Positions 4,976 to 11,285 of a DNA stretch of 64,000 nucleotides are shown piece after piece; the first letter of the stretch is position 1; each line of letters starts with the position of its first letter. A program made the translations under genes and the position numbers. Origin of the DNA: an uncultured Clostridia bacterium (GTDB lineage Bacteria > Bacillota > Clostridia > UBA1212 > UBA1255); the NCBI GenBank assembly GCA_947625435.1, contig CANQOI010000003.1, positions 1,591 through 65,590 of the forward strand, in the 5' to 3' direction. Below the pieces are notes generated by a model that was not told the origin of the DNA, searched no databases, and saw only the letters and a list, made by a program, of their open reading frames with translations.

Positions 4976-5193
4976 TTCAGCTACCTCCCGTTTAGTTCTT
5001 TTATACGGGACGAATTATAGTCTTTAATACTCATATTATCAAGATTTTTATTCCGCACCGGCGGCGGCGATAAATCAGTTATGGATTTATAAACTAAATA
5101 TTGTAAAATTTTTCTGTGATTTTGCCTTTATAATTTGACAATCCGGTTATAATATGATAGGATAGCAATGTAAAAAAGAGAGGAGATCATTAT

Positions 5194-6402
5194 ATGATCT
5201 GTCAATTTTCATTCAGGAATTTTATGTCATATAAAAATGAGGCTGTATTTGATTTCCAGGCAGCAGCTATTCCCGAGTTGTCCGACAGCGTTATTACGGG
5301 GGATAAGATGTCTGATCTTCTCCCGGCCTGCGTGATATACGGCCCAAACGGAGGCGGAAAGTCTAATCTGCTCAAGGCATTTGCCTGCCTTGTTTGTACT
5401 GTTGTAAAGCCCGTTGCAGATCTCGGAAAGACAAGGGAGGCTTTAATATTGCAGCTTGGGGCAGACTGCATTCCGTTTTTGCTCGATGACAATTCGCGGG
5501 ATGAGAGCACCATGTTCCGAGTTTATTTCCGCACTGACGGCAGCGAATACCGGTACAGCTTGGCTATAAATAAAGACGAGATAGTATCCGAATCTCTTTC
5601 ATGGAGAAATATCGGAGGGAAGAAAACAGGCGTTGTCTTTATAAGAAACTTTAGTGACATAGACCTCGGAGCCAGCATTAATAAGACAAGTGTCAACAAA
5701 CAAGTTAACCCCAAGATGCCTTATCTGTCTTTCCTTGCTATCAATTATGATTTTCCGGTCATAGCAGAGGTAATATCATGGTTTGAATCATGTATTATTC
5801 AAAGTTATGCCAATACGCATGTCGACAGCAGGATATTCTTTACAGATGAGAGCAACAAAAAGTCGATCATCCGAGCTTTGAATGATCTGGATATTGATAT
5901 CGCCGATTACAGATTCAGTGATGACAAGAAGCAAATGTATACTGTCAGAACAGTAAATGAAAAATCATATGAACTGCCTTTCGAATACGAATCCGACGGC
6001 ACAAGAAAGCTGCTTACAGCTCTTCCTATCATACTGATCGCACTTCGTTACGGAAGATTTGTTGTTATAGATGAGCTGGATGCCAAACTTCATCCGAAGC
6101 TCCTTCGTTATATAATCAAGCTCTTTCACAACCCCGAGATCAATAAAAACGGAGCCCAGTTGCTTTACACCTCTCACGATCTGACTACCATGAAGAATGA
6201 TCTGTTCCGCAGAGATGAGATATGGTTTGCATGTGAAAATGATTCTCATGAGAGTGAAATATATTCATTATATGATATTCGCGACGAAAATGACAAACAC
6301 GTCAATAATACCGCCGCATACGATAAGCAGTATATAGAAGGAAGATACGGCGCCGATCCTTACCTGCAGAATATTTTAGGAGGCGAATGGAATGAGTCTT
6401 AA
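5194..6402 (+). CDS. AAA_21-type ABC/SMC-like ATPase (AbiLi/RloC/OLD-family-like), defence-associated
   Basis: P-loop VIYGPNGGGKSNLLKA near the N-terminus. Walker-B-like RFVVIDELDAKLHP and LYTSHD near the C-terminus (split ATPase layout). AT-rich gene with an AGAGGAG SD. Confidence 0.75.
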   Translation: MICQFSFRNFMSYKNEAVFDFQAAAIPELSDSVITGDKMSDLLPACVIYGPNGGGKSNLLKAFACLVCTVVKPVADLGKTREALILQLGADCIPFLLDDNSRDESTMFRVYFRTDGSEYRYSLAINKDEIVSESLSWRNIGGKKTGVVFIRNFSDIDLGASINKTSVNKQVNPKMPYLSFLAINYDFPVIAEVISWFESCIIQSYANTHVDSRIFFTDESNKKSIIRALNDLDIDIADYRFSDDKKQMYTVRTVNEKSYELPFEYESDGTRKLLTALPIILIALRYGRFVVIDELDAKLHPKLLRYIIKLFHNPEINKNGAQLLYTSHDLTTMKNDLFRRDEIWFACENDSHESEIYSLYDIRDENDKHVNNTAAYDKQYIEGRYGADPYLQNILGGEWNES

Positions 6403-7069
6403 GCCGACTAAAAAAACGGATCTTGGCAAGGACTGGCTTAAAGGCCGTGAGGCGCGGTCAACAAGAGTAAGACTCAATCCCGAATATCATCTTATTGTCA
6501 CTGAAGGAATTGATACAGAGCCGAGATATTTTGAAGCTATAAAAAACGAGATAAATAAGAATTTCAAAGACCGTATCAGCTTCGAAATAATCGGTACGGG
6601 AGATAATACAATCAGTCTTTTCAAAAAAGCTAAGTCCATCGTTGACAAAAGTCCCAATGGATTCAAGCACGTTTGGATCGTATACGATACCGACGACTTT
6701 CCACGGGAAAACATAAATCAAACTTTTGAGTTATGTAAGTCAAGCTCCACCGACGAAACAAAGTATCATGCTTTATGGTCTAATCAATGTATTGAACTCT
6801 GGTTCCTGCTTCACTTTGCCTACTATCATTCGGACATACACAGAACTGAGTATTGGCCGAAATTGACTGAACACCTAAAAAAAATCAATGCCGGAGAGTA
6901 TACAAAGGATCGCGATGATATGTATCTGATTTTGAAGCCGTTTGTTGATACTGCAATAAAAAATGCAAAAAAACTTGCATTTAGAAATCAAGGAAAAACA
7001 CCGGCAGAATCAGCCCCAGGCACTGAGGTATATCAGATCATTGAGATGCTTAAACCGTTTCTAAACTAA
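6392..7069 (+). CDS. RloB-like (AbiLii-like, TOPRIM-like) partner protein
   Basis: Overlaps the ATPase gene by 11 nt. HLIVTEGIDTEPRYFEAIK matches the RloB family signature (...IVCEGEKTEPNYF...). Acidic VWIVYDTDDF motif. 225 aa. Confidence 0.7.
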   Translation: MSLKPTKKTDLGKDWLKGREARSTRVRLNPEYHLIVTEGIDTEPRYFEAIKNEINKNFKDRISFEIIGTGDNTISLFKKAKSIVDKSPNGFKHVWIVYDTDDFPRENINQTFELCKSSSTDETKYHALWSNQCIELWFLLHFAYYHSDIHRTEYWPKLTEHLKKINAGEYTKDRDDMYLILKPFVDTAIKNAKKLAFRNQGKTPAESAPGTEVYQIIEMLKPFLN

Positions 7070-7087
7070 ATGGATAGGAGATCACAC

Positions 7088-7267
7088 ATGAATGTAACCT
7101 TTGTAAATCCCGGAGTGGATTATATGATTTCGCGGATCATGGAGTCCCAATCCGAAGGTGAGTCCGCATTTTGGTCAGACCCTTTATTTCATTTCTTTCC
7201 TAAACTCGACAAAGCCCATGTCGACAGTCTTCCTTTTTCAACGATCTGCTGTGTAATGTCACTATGA
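7088..7267 (+). CDS. small hypothetical ORF (59 aa), first of an overlapping pair after the AbiL-like genes
   Basis: The ATG at 7088 has an AGGAG SD 6 nt upstream. It ends in an ATGA overlap with the next ORF. No recognisable family. Confidence 0.3.
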   Translation: MNVTFVNPGVDYMISRIMESQSEGESAFWSDPLFHFFPKLDKAHVDSLPFSTICCVMSL

Positions 7268-7662
7268 ATCCGATCGAACCGCGTTTTCTCAAGGAGCATC
7301 GCTTTGATGTTTTTTATCTGAACAGCGAAAAAGGAGCTATCGGTGAAAGTATACATGAAATCGTGCACTTTATGTGGTTTTATGTATGGAATCAGTTGTT
7401 CGGTGACGATTACGATGAGTACGAGCGACCCTCGCTTAACCGGCTCAGTTCAATCAATCCTTACTTTCCCGGAGAAAACGGAGGATGTATATATCCCTGT
7501 TTCTTTGATATGAAGGTGAACGGTGTGCTGATACCGGATACGCTCAATACCATGTATAAGTCTCAGAGTATTGAAAATTTCATGCGCAACAGTTTTGCTT
7601 ATTGCAAGGAACACGAGACTGAAATCAGAGAGCACATGATCAAATCAAACGGAGCGGTATGA
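7264..7662 (+). CDS. hypothetical protein (132 aa) with an HExxH motif (SIHEIVHFMWF)
   Basis: Translationally coupled to the preceding ORF (ATGA). Carries an HEIVH motif and is followed by a strong hairpin. This could be the C-terminal part of a frameshifted longer gene. Confidence 0.35.
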   Translation: MNPIEPRFLKEHRFDVFYLNSEKGAIGESIHEIVHFMWFYVWNQLFGDDYDEYERPSLNRLSSINPYFPGENGGCIYPCFFDMKVNGVLIPDTLNTMYKSQSIENFMRNSFAYCKEHETEIREHMIKSNGAV

Positions 7663-7674
7663 TAAATTCCCGTT

Positions 7675-7708
7675 AAGGAACGGCATGACCGAGATCATGC
7701 CGTTCCTT
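7675..7708. terminator. hairpin terminator after the islet ORFs, convergent with nifJ
   Basis: AAGGAACGGCATGA-ccgaga-TCATGCCGTTCCTT is a perfect 14-16 bp stem. It is followed by T-rich sequence on the plus strand. Confidence 0.5.
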
Positions 7709-7736
7709 CAGAATTTTATTGATTTTTCTTTACCGT

Positions 7737-10700
7737 TTACGCCTCGTACAGATCTCTCAGCTTGAGCAGATGCTCATACTTAGCCTTGGCGGCATCAGCA
7801 GCCTTGGCAAAGAGCTCCTCTGCCCTCTCCGGGAACGCCTGCTTCAGGCGGCTGTAACGCGTTTCACTCTGTATGAAGTCGATATAGCTCTCCGTAGGAG
7901 CCTTGCAATCGATCGTAAGAGGATTCTTGCCCTCAGCCTTGAGCGCAGGGTTGAAACGGAATGTCTGCCAATATCCGGCGGCAACAGCCTTCTTCATCTC
8001 GGACTGGCAGTTCGTCATGCCGCCCTTGACACCGTGCATTTCACAGGGAGCATATCCTATCACAATGGAAGGACCGTGATAAGCCTCCGCCTCCGTAAGA
8101 GCCTTTATAGTCTGGTTCATATCTGCGCCCATTGCTATCTGAGCCACATAAACGTAACCGTAGGACATGGCGATCTCGGCAAGGTTCTTCTTGCCTATGG
8201 ACTTGCCTGCCGCGGCAAACTGAGCTACCTGACCTATCTGGCTCGCCTTGGACGCCTGTCCGCCGGTATTGGAGTAAACCTCTGTATCAAATACCATCAC
8301 GTTTACATCCTCTCCCGAAGCCAGAACATGGTCGAGTCCGCCGAAGCCTATATCATATGCCCATCCGTCGCCGCCGAATATCCATACGGACTTCTTGGCA
8401 AGATATTCCTTGCTCGCAAGTATCGTCTTGCGCTCCTCACAGTCGCAGTCAAGTGTTTCGAGCTTTGCTATAAGCTTTGCGGCAGGCTCTGCATTCGCCT
8501 TGCCGTCATCCTTTGTATCAAGGAATGCGGTGCAGAGAGCCTTCACTTCATCATCGGAAGTCTTGTCGGCAATACGCTCAACACATGCTATGAGCCTGTC
8601 TCTTATGGCCTTCTGACCTAAGAATATTCCGAGTCCGTGCTCCGCATTGTCCTCAAAGAGGCTGTTGCCCCATGCCGGTCCGCGGCCTGAGTCACGGTTT
8701 ACAGTATAAGGTGTGGCAGGCGCCGAGCCGCCCCATATGGAAGAGCATCCGGTAGCATTTGAAATATACATGCGCTCGCCGAAGAGCTGTGTTATAAGTC
8801 TTGCATATGATGTCTCCGCACAGCCTGCGCAGGAGCCTGAGAATTCAAGCAGCGGCTGGTTGAACTGGCTGCCCTTTACCGAGAAATCGCTGAAGGATGT
8901 GGGCTTCTTCGTGACCGTAGCCACAGTATAATCGAATGCCGCCTGCTGATCCTTCTGAGATTCCTGAGATACCATGCGAAGAGCCTTTTCCTTGGCGGGG
9001 CACACATTTACGCACAGTCCGCATCCCATACAGTCAAGCGGGCTTATCGAAACCGTGAATGTGTATTCCTCGCAGCCCTTGCCCTTCATCTGTACCTTCT
9101 TTGTAGATGCCGGAGCACCGGCTGCCTCCTCCGCGTTCATGACGAACGGACGGATCGTGGCATGCGGGCATACGAAGGAGCACTGGTTACACTGTATACA
9201 ATTCTCGGGTATCCACTCAGGAACGTCCACGGCAACTCCGCGCTTTTCAAATGCGGCGGAGCCCTGCGGGAACGTACCGTCAGCTCTGTCCTTAAATACC
9301 GATACGGGCAGAGAATCGCCCTGCATCATGCCCACGGGCTGAAGTATCTCTTTCACAAATCTGGCAAGCTCCGGAGACTTACTGTTGACATCGCGCTCCT
9401 CTTTTACAACGGGAAGCGTCTTCCATGACTCGGGAACGTCGATCTTAACTATCGCGTCAACGCCCGCGTCTATCGCCTTATAGTTCATTTCAACTACGGC
9501 TTCGCCCTTCTTCATATATGACTTCTTGGCTGCCGCCTTCATATATTCGACCGCCGTATCTATCGGTAAAATGTTAGCGAGCGCGAAGAATGCGGACTGG
9601 AGTATAGTATTCGTCCTCTTGCCCATTCCTATCTCTCTCGCCTTGTCGATAGCATTTACTATATAGAACTTAATGTCGTTTTCCGCGATATATCTCTTGA
9701 CCTCTGCCGGCAGGTGCTTTTCAAGCTCCTCCGGAGTCCACTGACAGTTAAGGAGGAACGTACCGCCCGGCTTAACATCATTTACTATCTTATATCCCTT
9801 GAGCATGTATGACGGATTGTGGCATGCAACGAAGTCGGCCTTTGTTATATAGTACGACGACTTTATGGGCTTATCTCCGAAGCGCAGGTGCGATATAGTA
9901 ACGCCGCCCGTCTTCTTTGAGTCATACTGGAAGTATGCCTGTATGAATTTGTCCGTATGGTCGCCTATTATCTTTATCGAATTCTTGTTCGCGCCCACCG
10001 TTCCGTCTCCGCCGAGACCCCAGAACTTGCAGCTTATTGTGCCTGCGGGAGCCGTATCCGGAGCGGGCTTCTCCGCAAGGGAGTGATGCGTGACATCGTC
10101 CACTATTCCTATGGTGAAATTTCCCTTAGGCTCGTCGGCCTTGAGATTCTCATATACGGCAAATATGCTCGGCGGAGGCGTATCCTTGGAGCCGAGTCCG
10201 TAGCGTCCGCCTACTACCTTGGCATTTACGCCCTTGGAAGCAAGAGCGGCGGCAACATCGAGATAAAGAGGCTCGCCCAAGGAGCCGGGCTCCTTCGTCC
10301 TGTCGAGCACTGCTATCTTCTTAGCTGTTGAAGGTATAGCCTCTATGAGCTTCTCTGCGCTGAAGGGTCTGTAAAGTCTTACCTTAACAAGACCTACCTT
10401 CTCGCCGCGGGCATTCATATAATCTATTACTTCCTCAGCCACATCGCAAATAGAGCCCATGGCAACTATGACCCTGTCGGCATCGGGAGCGCCGTAATAG
10501 TTGAACAGCTTATAATTCGTTCCTATCCTGGCATTTACCTGATTCATATAATCCTCGACCACAGCGGGAAGTGCCTCATAATAGCTGTTGCACGCCTCTC
10601 TGTGCTGGAAGAATATATCTCCGTTCTCTGCGCTGCCTCTTAATACAGGATGCTCGGGATTGAGAGCTCTCTTTCTGAACTCCGCAAGAGCGTCCCTGTC

Positions 10701-11285
10701 TATCATGGAAGCAAGCTCGTCGTAATCCCATGCTTCTATCTTCTGTATCTCATGAGATGTGCGGAATCCGTCGAAGAAATTGATAAAAGGAACTCTGCCC
10801 TTTATCGCGGACAGATGCGCAACGGCGCCCAGATCCATGACCTCCTGAGGATTCGTGCATGCCAGCATCGCAAAGCCTGTCTGACGGCACGCATATATAT
10901 CGGAATGATCTCCGAAAATGTTGAGTGCGTGAGACGCAACGCATCTTGCGGAAACGTGTATAACGCAGGGAAGCAGCTCGCCCGCTATTTTATACATGTT
11001 AGGTATCATAAGAAGCAGTCCCTGGGATGCGGTATATGTCGTTGTAAGAGCGCCCGCCGCAAGGCTTCCGTGAACGGTGCCGGCGGCGCCTGCCTCTGAC
11101 TGCATTTCAATTACTTTAACTTTATCTCCGAAAATATTCTTAAGACCCGTAGCCGACCATGAGTCCGTCAGCTCAGCCATAACACTGGACGGCGTTATAG
11201 GATAAATACTCGCGACCTCTGTAAAAGCATAGCTCACATGAGCGGCGGCTGTATTTCCGTCCATTGATATCTTCTTTCTGGACAT
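7737..11285 (-). CDS. nifJ: pyruvate:ferredoxin (flavodoxin) oxidoreductase (PFOR)
   Basis: 1182 aa. N-terminus MDGNTAAAHVSYAFTEVASIYPITPSS. Two 4Fe-4S ferredoxin motifs (CIQCNQCSFVCPH, CMGCGLCVNVCP). TPP domain GGDGWAYDIGFGG. Confidence 0.9.
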   Translation of the reverse strand: MSRKKISMDGNTAAAHVSYAFTEVASIYPITPSSVMAELTDSWSATGLKNIFGDKVKVIEMQSEAGAAGTVHGSLAAGALTTTYTASQGLLLMIPNMYKIAGELLPCVIHVSARCVASHALNIFGDHSDIYACRQTGFAMLACTNPQEVMDLGAVAHLSAIKGRVPFINFFDGFRTSHEIQKIEAWDYDELASMIDRDALAEFRKRALNPEHPVLRGSAENGDIFFQHREACNSYYEALPAVVEDYMNQVNARIGTNYKLFNYYGAPDADRVIVAMGSICDVAEEVIDYMNARGEKVGLVKVRLYRPFSAEKLIEAIPSTAKKIAVLDRTKEPGSLGEPLYLDVAAALASKGVNAKVVGGRYGLGSKDTPPPSIFAVYENLKADEPKGNFTIGIVDDVTHHSLAEKPAPDTAPAGTISCKFWGLGGDGTVGANKNSIKIIGDHTDKFIQAYFQYDSKKTGGVTISHLRFGDKPIKSSYYITKADFVACHNPSYMLKGYKIVNDVKPGGTFLLNCQWTPEELEKHLPAEVKRYIAENDIKFYIVNAIDKAREIGMGKRTNTILQSAFFALANILPIDTAVEYMKAAAKKSYMKKGEAVVEMNYKAIDAGVDAIVKIDVPESWKTLPVVKEERDVNSKSPELARFVKEILQPVGMMQGDSLPVSVFKDRADGTFPQGSAAFEKRGVAVDVPEWIPENCIQCNQCSFVCPHATIRPFVMNAEEAAGAPASTKKVQMKGKGCEEYTFTVSISPLDCMGCGLCVNVCPAKEKALRMVSQESQKDQQAAFDYTVATVTKKPTSFSDFSVKGSQFNQPLLEFSGSCAGCAETSYARLITQLFGERMYISNATGCSSIWGGSAPATPYTVNRDSGRGPAWGNSLFEDNAEHGLGIFLGQKAIRDRLIACVERIADKTSDDEVKALCTAFLDTKDDGKANAEPAAKLIAKLETLDCDCEERKTILASKEYLAKKSVWIFGGDGWAYDIGFGGLDHVLASGEDVNVMVFDTEVYSNTGGQASKASQIGQVAQFAAAGKSIGKKNLAEIAMSYGYVYVAQIAMGADMNQTIKALTEAEAYHGPSIVIGYAPCEMHGVKGGMTNCQSEMKKAVAAGYWQTFRFNPALKAEGKNPLTIDCKAPTESYIDFIQSETRYSRLKQAFPERAEELFAKAADAAKAKYEHLLKLRDLYEA

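What the first reader, a model, noticed from the sequence alone, without database searches (positions are those of the whole stretch)
7070..7662. Two translationally coupled small ORFs with an HExxH motif directly downstream of the AbiL-like pair; candidate extra component or a frameshifted gene
ORF 7088..7267 (59 aa) and ORF 7264..7662 (132 aa) overlap by ATGA. They share the islet's AT-rich composition and are closed by a strong hairpin (7675..7708). The second carries SIHEIVHFMWF, an HExxH motif suggestive of a zincin-like/ImmA-like metallopeptidase core. I do not recognise a family. They could be a third component of the defence module, or two halves of one gene broken by a frameshift.
Basis: seen in the sequence. 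Interest (0 to 1): 0.55.

Follow-up and report, generated by a model that had tools for sequence, protein, structure and literature searches.

The report
Decayed zincin-like gene beside AbiL
The two small overlapping ORFs are what is left of one ~260-residue gene for an uncharacterised zinc-hydrolase-like protein that lost two internal pieces, and it only happens to lie next to the AbiL phage-defence gene pair.

Summary
ORFs 7088..7267 and 7264..7662, the ATGA overlap, the HEIVH motif and the hairpin at 7675..7708 are all present.

They are not two coupled genes or a third AbiL component. About 640 database homologues are almost all single proteins of ~259-260 aa. Alignment with the closest intact genes shows two deletions in the window copy:
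- 166 nt between two TTTTCAA repeats, which shifts the frame at 7235-7241.
- 45 nt in frame at 7438-7440, which removes a helix carrying invariant glutamates.

The "start" of ORF2 is an internal Met codon, so the ATGA overlap is accidental. Three other metagenome assemblies carry the same allele.

Intact homologues never sit near AAA_21/RloB genes (0 of 80 genomes), and the closest RloB loci never carry this family (0 of 80). AbiL homology ends at 7074 or earlier, and family homology starts at 7072.

Verdict: a young pseudogene. Interest is low. The unannotated family is AT-rich, apparently horizontally transferred and repeatedly decaying, which makes it a minor curiosity.

The parts
7072..7669 (+). 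Whole pseudogene: the span that is homologous at nucleotide level to intact family genes in other genomes
   Evidence: blastn against L028/L029/L030/L001/L024 gives two blocks, 7072-7244 and 7235-7669/7678, at 75-92% identity. Alignments A1 and A3.
7088..7240 (+). Fragment A: codons 1-51 of the ancestral ~260-codon gene, preceded by its RBS (GGATAGGAG, 7073-7081)
   Evidence: Translation MNVTF...DSLPFS aligns with residues 1-51 of P0001. The family profile hits positions 1-51 at E = 1e-23.
7235..7241 (+). Junction of deletion 1 (166 nt, i.e. 1 mod 3, hence a frameshift), lying inside a TTTTCAA microhomology
   Evidence: In the intact gene L029, TTTTCAA occurs at 566 and 732, exactly 166 nt apart. 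The window keeps one copy.
7241..7267 (+). Out-of-frame tail of 'ORF1' (TICCVMSL, then stop TGA at 7265-7267). It is the wrong-frame reading of codons 107-116 of the ancestral gene.
   Evidence: Three-frame translation and DNA alignment.
7237..7437 (+). Fragment B: ancestral codons 106-172. It includes the 'start' of ORF2 (ATG 7264, the internal Met115) and the HExxH motif.
   Evidence: FNDLLCNVTMNPIEP...YERPSL aligns with P0001 residues 106-172.
7354..7368 (+). HEIVH, the HExxH motif (H145, E146, H149 of the intact protein)
   Evidence: These columns are invariant in 44 of 44 aligned homologues. They sit on predicted helix 136-160 of the model.
7438..7440 (+). Junction of deletion 2 (45 nt, in frame). 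Ancestral residues 173-188 are replaced by a single Asn codon.
   Evidence: Alignments A1 and A3. The lost columns include invariant K173, W174, S177, E178, M179, V181, E182 and M185.
7441..7662 (+). Fragment C: ancestral codons 189-260 plus the stop codon
   Evidence: RLSSINPYFP...SNGAV aligns with the C-terminus of P0001.
7675..7708 (.). Strong hairpin between the pseudogene and the convergent pyruvate:ferredoxin oxidoreductase-like gene (7737..11285, minus strand). It lies outside the family homology, so it belongs to the local flank and is probably a shared terminator.
   Evidence: The fold of 7660-7730 is -25.1 kcal/mol, z = -5.5. Homology with other family loci ends about 10 nt after the stop codon.
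5194..7069 (+). Neighbouring AbiL-type pair, which is context and not part of the feature: AAA_21/AbiLi 5194..6402 and RloB/AbiLii 6392..7069
   Evidence: Pfam and PADLOC. Nucleotide homology with 80 other AbiL loci spans 5081 to at most 7074.

Best explanation
Positions 7072..7669 are a recently inactivated copy (pseudogene) of a single ~260-codon gene. The gene belongs to an unannotated family found in gut Clostridia (Oscillospiraceae, Lachnospiraceae, Christensenellaceae and others).

Shown: the intact protein has a confidently predicted fold that distantly resembles zincin domains. It has three short beta strands, an active-site helix with an invariant HExxH, and a following helix with invariant glutamates.

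Inferred: it is a cytoplasmic zinc-dependent hydrolase of the gluzincin type. Its substrate is unknown.

Shown: the window copy suffered two deletions. One is a 166-nt deletion between two TTTTCAA repeats, typical of slippage or microhomology-mediated deletion. It removes codons 52-105, including the long helix 50-98, and shifts the frame. The other is a 45-nt in-frame deletion that removes residues 173-188, which form most of the candidate glutamate helix. The first deletion makes the original frame stop at 7265-7267. An internal Met codon (Met115) at 7264 then opens a 132-codon ORF in the original downstream frame, and this produces the apparent ATGA 'coupling'.

Inferred: neither piece can form the ancestral active site, so no function is expected.

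The gene is juxtaposed to the AbiL (AAA_21 + RloB) pair but does not belong to it. The AbiL block ends at the RloB stop codon, 3 nt before the family homology begins. The AbiL block also replaces about 45 nt of the 5' leader that the closest intact copies share.
For: - About 640 homologues are almost all 257-265 aa and cover 95-97% of the concatenated ORFs. Their sequences show both missing segments.
- DNA alignments with intact genes L001 and L029 show gaps of 166 and 45 nt. The TTTTCAA repeats lie 166 nt apart in L029.
- The deletions remove 28 of the 122 columns that are at least 95% conserved, including E178 and E182.
- Three other ENA metagenome assemblies (L003, L004, L005) are 99.7-100% identical to the window over 5139-8576 and carry the same 59 + 132 aa split. 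A 59-aa variant with the same junction also exists (P0272).
- dN/dS of the retained codons against L029 is 0.115 at dS 0.29, which is about the same as the intact-versus-intact pair L029/L030 (0.139). The lesions are therefore young relative to that divergence.
- In 80 GTDB genomes with the intact gene, phmmer finds no AAA_21 or RloB homologue of the window proteins within 8 kb on either side. Five further species examined by gene context show none either.
- In 80 loci with the closest RloB homologues (77 of which also hold AAA_21), the family HMM and tblastn find nothing.
- AbiL homology ends at 7074 or earlier, and family homology starts at 7072.
- Related copies show other, independent lesions: a 464-nt deletion in L190/L191 and a 1-nt frameshift in L028.
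Against: - The retained codons show no relaxation of constraint (omega 0.115). Deviations at conserved columns (Q39K, R199G, L220P, D224N) fall within the range seen in intact members. The sequence alone therefore cannot exclude some residual use of ORF2.
- The supporting assemblies are low coverage (about 2x) and their accession numbers suggest they come from one study. Reads were not inspected.
Confidence: 0.93

Rival explanations
1. The two ORFs are a functional third (and fourth) component of the AbiL-type defence module. They would be translationally coupled to each other and co-transcribed with AAA_21 and RloB.
For: They lie on the same strand, 18 nt downstream of the RloB stop, with no terminator in between. 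GC content is similarly low. The ATGA overlap is real. The arrangement is identical in three other assemblies.
Against: The other assemblies are the same strain (at least 99.7% identity), so they say nothing about conservation. None of 80 loci with the closest RloB homologues carries the family, and none of 80 genomes with the intact gene has AAA_21 or RloB nearby. Nucleotide homology of the two blocks breaks exactly at 7070-7074. There is no PADLOC hit. Low GC is typical of the family wherever it sits. The ORF boundaries are explained by a deletion in a 260-codon gene.
Confidence: 0.02
2. The split is an assembly or sequencing artefact, and the organism really has an intact 260-codon gene.
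For: The source contigs are low-coverage metagenome assemblies (about 1.7-2.6x in L003-L005).
Against: The lesions are clean deletions of 166 and 45 nt, not single-base indels. The same allele appears in the window record and in three separately assembled samples with no difference inside 7072-7669. A further sample holds a 59-aa variant with the same junction. A deletion between 7-nt direct repeats is a normal biological event.
Confidence: 0.03
3. The truncated products, especially the 132-aa ORF2 that retains HExxH, are expressed and keep or have gained a function, making this a split or miniaturised zincin.
For: The retained codons show omega of about 0.12. HExxH and E166/E168 are retained. 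Minimal zincins of about 110 aa exist: selecase and Wss1 are among the fold hits.
Against: The low omega is explained by recent deletion. ORF2 lacks the first beta strand, helices 10-105 and most of helix 172-185, which carries four invariant residues including E178 and E182. ORF2 has no RBS of its own other than coding sequence. No homologue with this architecture is conserved; the other short forms have different, independent lesions.
Confidence: 0.02

Closest known systems
Gluzincin metallopeptidases of clan MA (M1 aminopeptidase / LTA4H catalytic domain, thermolysin-like)
   Different: There is no sequence-profile match to any Pfam or NCBIfam peptidase family and no PDB sequence match. Foldseek is not significant. 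The protein is a ~260-aa stand-alone domain with a distinctive 50-residue helix (50-98). Activity and metal binding are untested. The window copy lacks the candidate glutamate helix.
Minimal zincins (Wss1/SprT-like, selecase, ImmA/IrrE M78)
   Different: There is no Pfam hit to Peptidase_M78 or SprT-like for the family. Only 3 of 140 immediate neighbours have an HTH_3 domain, so there is no regular Xre-type repressor partner as ImmA has. The protein is about twice the size of those domains.
AbiL (AbiLi ABC-ATPase + AbiLii RloB/TOPRIM-like) two-gene abortive-infection system
   Same: The only link is physical adjacency in this strain. The upstream genes match AbiLi and AbiLii strongly. [quoted passage not shown]
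   Different: The feature is not homologous to either AbiL protein. It does not co-occur with them elsewhere. It lies outside the AbiL homology block.
Ordinary bacterial pseudogenes formed by deletion between short direct repeats
   Same: There is a frame-disrupting deletion flanked by a 7-nt microhomology plus a second internal deletion. Full-length homologues exist elsewhere, and the residual ORFs are mis-called as genes (P0004 and P0271 are in the databases as separate proteins).
   Different: Nothing material differs. The parent family is itself unannotated.

Membership tests
Pseudogene (decayed copy of a single gene) | Homologues exist as one uninterrupted ORF covering both fragments | tested here: met
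   About 640 hits, nearly all 257-265 aa, covering 95-97% of the concatenated ORFs. All 80 GTDB loci match across query residues 1 to ~255-260.
Pseudogene (decayed copy of a single gene) | Frame disruption and/or loss of conserved segments relative to intact relatives | tested here: met
   A 166-nt out-of-frame deletion and a 45-nt in-frame deletion. They remove 28 of the 122 columns that are at least 95% conserved.
Pseudogene (decayed copy of a single gene) | The lesion is real and not an assembly error | tested here: inconclusive
   The allele is identical in three other assemblies and a variant occurs in a fourth sample. Reads were not available for inspection.
Pseudogene (decayed copy of a single gene) | Relaxed selection on the remnant | tested here: not met
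   Omega is 0.115 against L029, the same as for intact pairs. This is expected if the inactivation is recent, and it does not contradict the structural lesions.
AbiL / AAA_21+RloB defence module (as an accessory component) | Co-occurrence with AAA_21 + RloB genes in other genomes | tested here: not met
   None of 80 genomes with the intact gene, none of 80 loci with the closest RloB homologues, and none in five species' gene contexts.
AbiL / AAA_21+RloB defence module (as an accessory component) | Match to a known defence-protein model | tested here: not met
   PADLOC gives no hit for P0001 or ORF2 at E <= 0.1.
Zincin / gluzincin metallohydrolase fold (intact family) | Conserved HExxH on a helix | tested here: met
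   H145, E146 and H149 are invariant in 44 of 44 sequences. They lie in helix 136-160 of the model. The motif is retained in the window at 7354-7368.
Zincin / gluzincin metallohydrolase fold (intact family) | Third metal ligand (Glu) on a downstream helix | tested here: inconclusive
   Invariant E166, E168, E178 and E182 are candidates. E178 and E182 are deleted in the window.
Zincin / gluzincin metallohydrolase fold (intact family) | Overall fold similarity to solved zincins | tested here: inconclusive
Zincin / gluzincin metallohydrolase fold (intact family) | Metal-dependent hydrolytic activity | not testable with these tools
   This needs biochemistry.
ImmA/IrrE (Peptidase_M78) | Profile match to PF06114 and pairing with an Xre-type HTH repressor | tested here: not met
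   No Pfam hit at E <= 1 for the window ORFs, P0001 or five divergent single-domain family members. HTH_3 occurs in only 3 of 140 immediate neighbours.
Programmed frameshift / translationally coupled gene pair | The overlap or shift site is conserved among homologues | tested here: not met
   Homologues read straight through. The ATG at 7264 is an internal Met codon, and the TGA is an out-of-frame reading of ATGAAT.

The most novel reading that the evidence does not exclude
The parent family could be a previously undescribed, horizontally mobile single-gene cassette: roughly 60 nt of leader, a 780-nt ORF and about 10 nt of trailer. It is AT-rich relative to its hosts. It would encode a new kind of gluzincin-like enzyme that gut Clostridia gain and lose quickly. 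Its role might lie in some conflict or detoxification process such as defence, anti-defence or resistance. Its position next to an AbiL pair would then reflect a shared hotspot for accessory genes.
Probability: 0.15. Interest if true: 0.5.

Novelty: new member of a known kind. Interest (0 to 1): 0.15.

Why it matters
For the scan, this removes a false lead. The AbiL-like islet in this window is a plain two-gene system, and the "extra component" is a gene remnant. ORF callers have already deposited the remnant as two hypothetical proteins (P0004, P0271).

The wider point is modest. The work uncovers a family of a few hundred 50%-identity clusters that no profile library covers. Three features make it a reasonable minor candidate for annotation and biochemical characterisation:
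- a confident model that distantly resembles zincin folds;
- strong purifying selection (omega about 0.06-0.14);
- a compositional and contextual signature of horizontal transfer, with repeated decay.

It does not bear on any long-standing question.

Tried and rejected
- Pfam, NCBIfam, PHROGs and PADLOC scans of both ORFs, their concatenation, the intact homologue and divergent or fused family members gave no family assignment. The one real hit was a separate C-terminal Peptidase_MA_2 domain in a 488-aa fusion protein, P0254.
- An HMM of the family against all PDB sequences found nothing meaningful.
- Foldseek against PDB and BFVD found nothing significant. The afdb50 library was unavailable.
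- tblastn of P0001 against PLSDB plasmids and INPHARED phages gave no match. IMG/VR gave one hit, at a contig end. The family is therefore not typical phage or plasmid cargo.
- I looked for a conserved operon partner among the immediate neighbours in 80 genomes. They are heterogeneous; GNAT acetyltransferases are the most frequent, at only 12 of 140.
- tRNA adjacency as an integration signature was seen in only a few loci.
- I tried to find an islet-free sister strain through exact matches of the neighbouring GDPD protein. Only two contigs of about 1 kb came back, which was uninformative.
- I looked for a second, intact copy in the 64-kb window. There is none.
- I rejected the '+1 frameshift near 7264' model, because the shift is at 7235-7241 and is a 166-nt deletion.

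Full report
**1. The observation**

The region reads as the first-stage reader described.
- An ATG at 7088, preceded by GGATAGGAG, opens a 59-codon ORF that ends with TGA at 7265-7267. An alternative ATG at 7070 would give 65 codons.
- A 132-codon ORF starts at 7264 and ends at 7662. The two ORFs overlap by ATGA.
- ORF2 contains GESIHEIVHFMWF, with HEIVH encoded at 7354-7368.
- GC is 0.42 for both ORFs, 0.39-0.42 for the two upstream genes, and about 0.50-0.52 for the flanking housekeeping genes.
- The inverted repeat at 7675-7708 is a perfect 14-bp stem. The 71-nt stretch 7660-7730 containing it folds at -25.1 kcal/mol (z = -5.5), and none of 200 shuffles folds as well.
- The upstream pair is AbiL-type: Pfam AAA_21 2.6e-29 and RloB 3.7e-40, PADLOC AbiLi 1.5e-79 and AbiLii 5.9e-27.

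**2. What the ORFs are**

Neither ORF matches any Pfam or NCBIfam model. A search of the 5.8-billion-protein collection with the two ORFs concatenated gave about 640 hits. Almost all are single proteins of 257-265 aa that cover 95-97% of the query. The one 132-aa hit, P0004, is ORF2 itself as already deposited.

Comparing the best hits with the window by eye shows two missing stretches:
- about 54 residues between ...DSLPFS and LFNDL...;
- about 15 residues (KWILSEMVVESVMKE) after ...YERPSL.

DNA alignments with the closest intact genes confirm this (L001; L029, about 92% identical).
- There is a gap of 166 nt, which is 1 mod 3, so the frame shifts.
- There is a second, in-frame gap of 45 nt.
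- In L029 the heptamer TTTTCAA occurs at both edges of the first gap, exactly 166 nt apart. The window retains one copy at 7235-7241. That is the signature of a deletion between short direct repeats.
- The second junction is the AAC codon at 7438-7440.

The ATG of ORF2 corresponds to the internal Met115 of the intact protein. The TGA that ends ORF1 is an out-of-frame reading of ATGAAT. The 'translational coupling' is therefore an accident of the frameshift. A profile built from 44 intact homologues hits the ORF1 frame over profile positions 1-51 and the ORF2 frame over positions 103-259. It finds no other copy in the 64-kb window.

**3. Whether the lesion is real**

- Three other separately assembled metagenome samples (L003, L004, L005) are 99.7-100% identical to the window over 5139-8576. 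They carry the same 59 + 132 aa arrangement, with no difference inside the pseudogene.
- A 59-aa variant with one substitution and the same junction exists in a further sample (P0272).
- Deletions of this size are not homopolymer errors.
- Read-level confirmation was not possible, and the contigs are low coverage. I therefore keep a small probability for an artefact.

**4. How old the lesion is**

Over the 183 retained codons, dN/dS against L029 is 0.115 at dS 0.29. This is about the same as the intact-versus-intact comparison L029/L030, at 0.139. The window deviates at four of the 94 retained highly conserved columns. Three of these (R199G, L220P, D224N) are absent from the closest intact homologues. 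This is within the range of 0-5 seen in intact members. The inactivation is therefore recent relative to the divergence from the nearest intact copies. The deletions themselves remove 28 of the 122 highly conserved columns.

**5. Relation to the AbiL pair**

The tests were run in both directions.
- *From the intact gene.* In 80 GTDB species genomes that hold the intact gene, phmmer with the window's AAA_21 and RloB proteins finds nothing within 8 kb on either side. Gene contexts with Pfam labels in five further species show unrelated housekeeping or accessory neighbours.
- *From RloB.* In 80 metagenome loci holding the closest RloB homologues (60-84% identity; 77 also hold the AAA_21 partner), neither tblastn nor the family HMM finds any trace of the family.
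- *At nucleotide level.* AbiL homology with those loci spans 5081 to at most 7074. Family homology with intact-gene loci begins at 7072.

The two blocks simply abut. The closest intact copies (L028, L029, L030, L190) share about 60 nt of leader. The window keeps only the last ~17 nt of that leader, including the RBS. The AbiL block therefore replaces most of it.

The shared AT-richness is not evidence of common origin. The family gene has lower GC than its flanks in 64 of 74 genomes, by 6.7 points on average. In L030 the gene is 0.44 and the flanks are 0.63.

**6. What the intact family is**

- A profile search of 1.84 billion cluster representatives finds 612 clusters at E <= 1e-3 and 376 at E <= 1e-10, typically about 250 aa. 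All names given by the sources are 'hypothetical protein'.
- AlphaFold2 with the 44-sequence alignment gives a confident model, with pLDDT 88.3 and pTM 0.86. It has strands at 3-6, 109-114 and 127-131, a very long helix at 50-98, helix 136-160 carrying the invariant H145-E146-x-x-H149, and helix 172-185 carrying invariant S177, E178 and E182.
- Foldseek finds nothing significant in PDB or BFVD. The afdb50 library was unavailable.

I infer a cytoplasmic gluzincin-like metallohydrolase of unknown substrate. The metal, the third ligand (E166, E168, E178 or E182) and the activity are all unproven. Whichever glutamate is the ligand, the window copy lacks both the long N-terminal helix and most of helix 172-185, so a working enzyme is not expected.

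**7. Side observations on the family**

- Copies that are 89-93% identical at nucleotide level sit in genomes whose flanks range from about 0.43 to 0.63 GC. Homology is confined to roughly -62 to +10 around the ORF. This points to recent horizontal transfer of a single-gene unit by an unknown route.
- The family is absent from sequenced plasmids and phages.
- Immediate neighbours are heterogeneous. GNAT acetyltransferases are the commonest, at 12 of 140.
- Other close copies carry different lesions: a 464-nt out-of-frame deletion in L190/L191 and a 1-nt frameshift in L028. The gene appears to be lost easily.

**8. Verdict**

The feature is a young pseudogene of an unannotated zincin-like family. 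It lies next to an AbiL two-gene system but is not part of it. Its 'extra defence component' and 'coupled ORFs' reading is not. Interest is low (0.15). The residual novelty lies in the parent family, not in this locus.

Noticed in passing
L030:7942-8794, L029:357-1208, L028:1602-2438, L190:400-784 (relatives of window 7072-7669): Copies of the family gene that are 89-93% identical in nucleotides lie in genomes with very different flank GC (L030 gene 0.44 against flanks 0.63). Homology is confined to about -62..+10 around the ORF. Across 74 genomes the gene has lower GC than its flanks in 64. It looks like a single-gene unit spread by horizontal transfer, with no visible mobility gene.
   Followed up: partly
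L190:462-692 and L191:356-586 (P0273, 76 aa); L028:1646-2427 (P0106, 232 aa): These are independent inactivating lesions in close relatives. L190/L191 (one MAG and one separate sample) lack 464 nt, corresponding to L029 587-1050. L028 has a 1-nt frameshift near codon 36, on a low-coverage contig. The gene seems to decay repeatedly.
   Followed up: partly
window 4976-5193 and 5081-7074: The intergenic stretch upstream of the AAA_21 gene is very AT-rich (GC 0.32). It holds a good sigma-70-like promoter match at 5135-5163 (TTGACA-17-TAGGAT with an upstream TG). Nucleotide homology with other AbiL loci starts at 5081-5194 and ends at 7074 or earlier, which delimits the AbiL block.
   Followed up: partly
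window 6857-6931 (inside the RloB gene): All seven differences between the window and the otherwise identical contigs L003 and L005 cluster in this 75-nt stretch of RloB. There are none in the pseudogene or elsewhere. This could be a small recombination patch or a hypervariable spot.
   Followed up: no
P0254 (488 aa), P0245 (396 aa), P0144 (597 aa): A few distant family members are fusions. P0254 carries the family domain (32-251) plus a separate C-terminal Peptidase_MA_2 domain (E = 8e-10). P0245 has a weak N-terminal ART-PolyVal-like match (E = 0.08). P0144 has about 320 extra residues with no match.
   Followed up: no
L030-L108, genes immediately flanking the intact family gene: GNAT acetyltransferases are the most frequent direct neighbours (12 of 140, and also in L028). 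NUDIX, methyltransferase, esterase and DUF6061 genes occur now and then. There is no fixed partner. A few loci sit directly downstream of tRNA genes (L030, L068, L078).
   Followed up: partly
window 7675-7708: The strong hairpin lies between two convergent genes, the pseudogene and the PFOR-like gene that ends at 7737, and it is outside the family homology. It is probably a bidirectional terminator belonging to the host flank rather than to the cassette or the AbiL block.
   Followed up: partly
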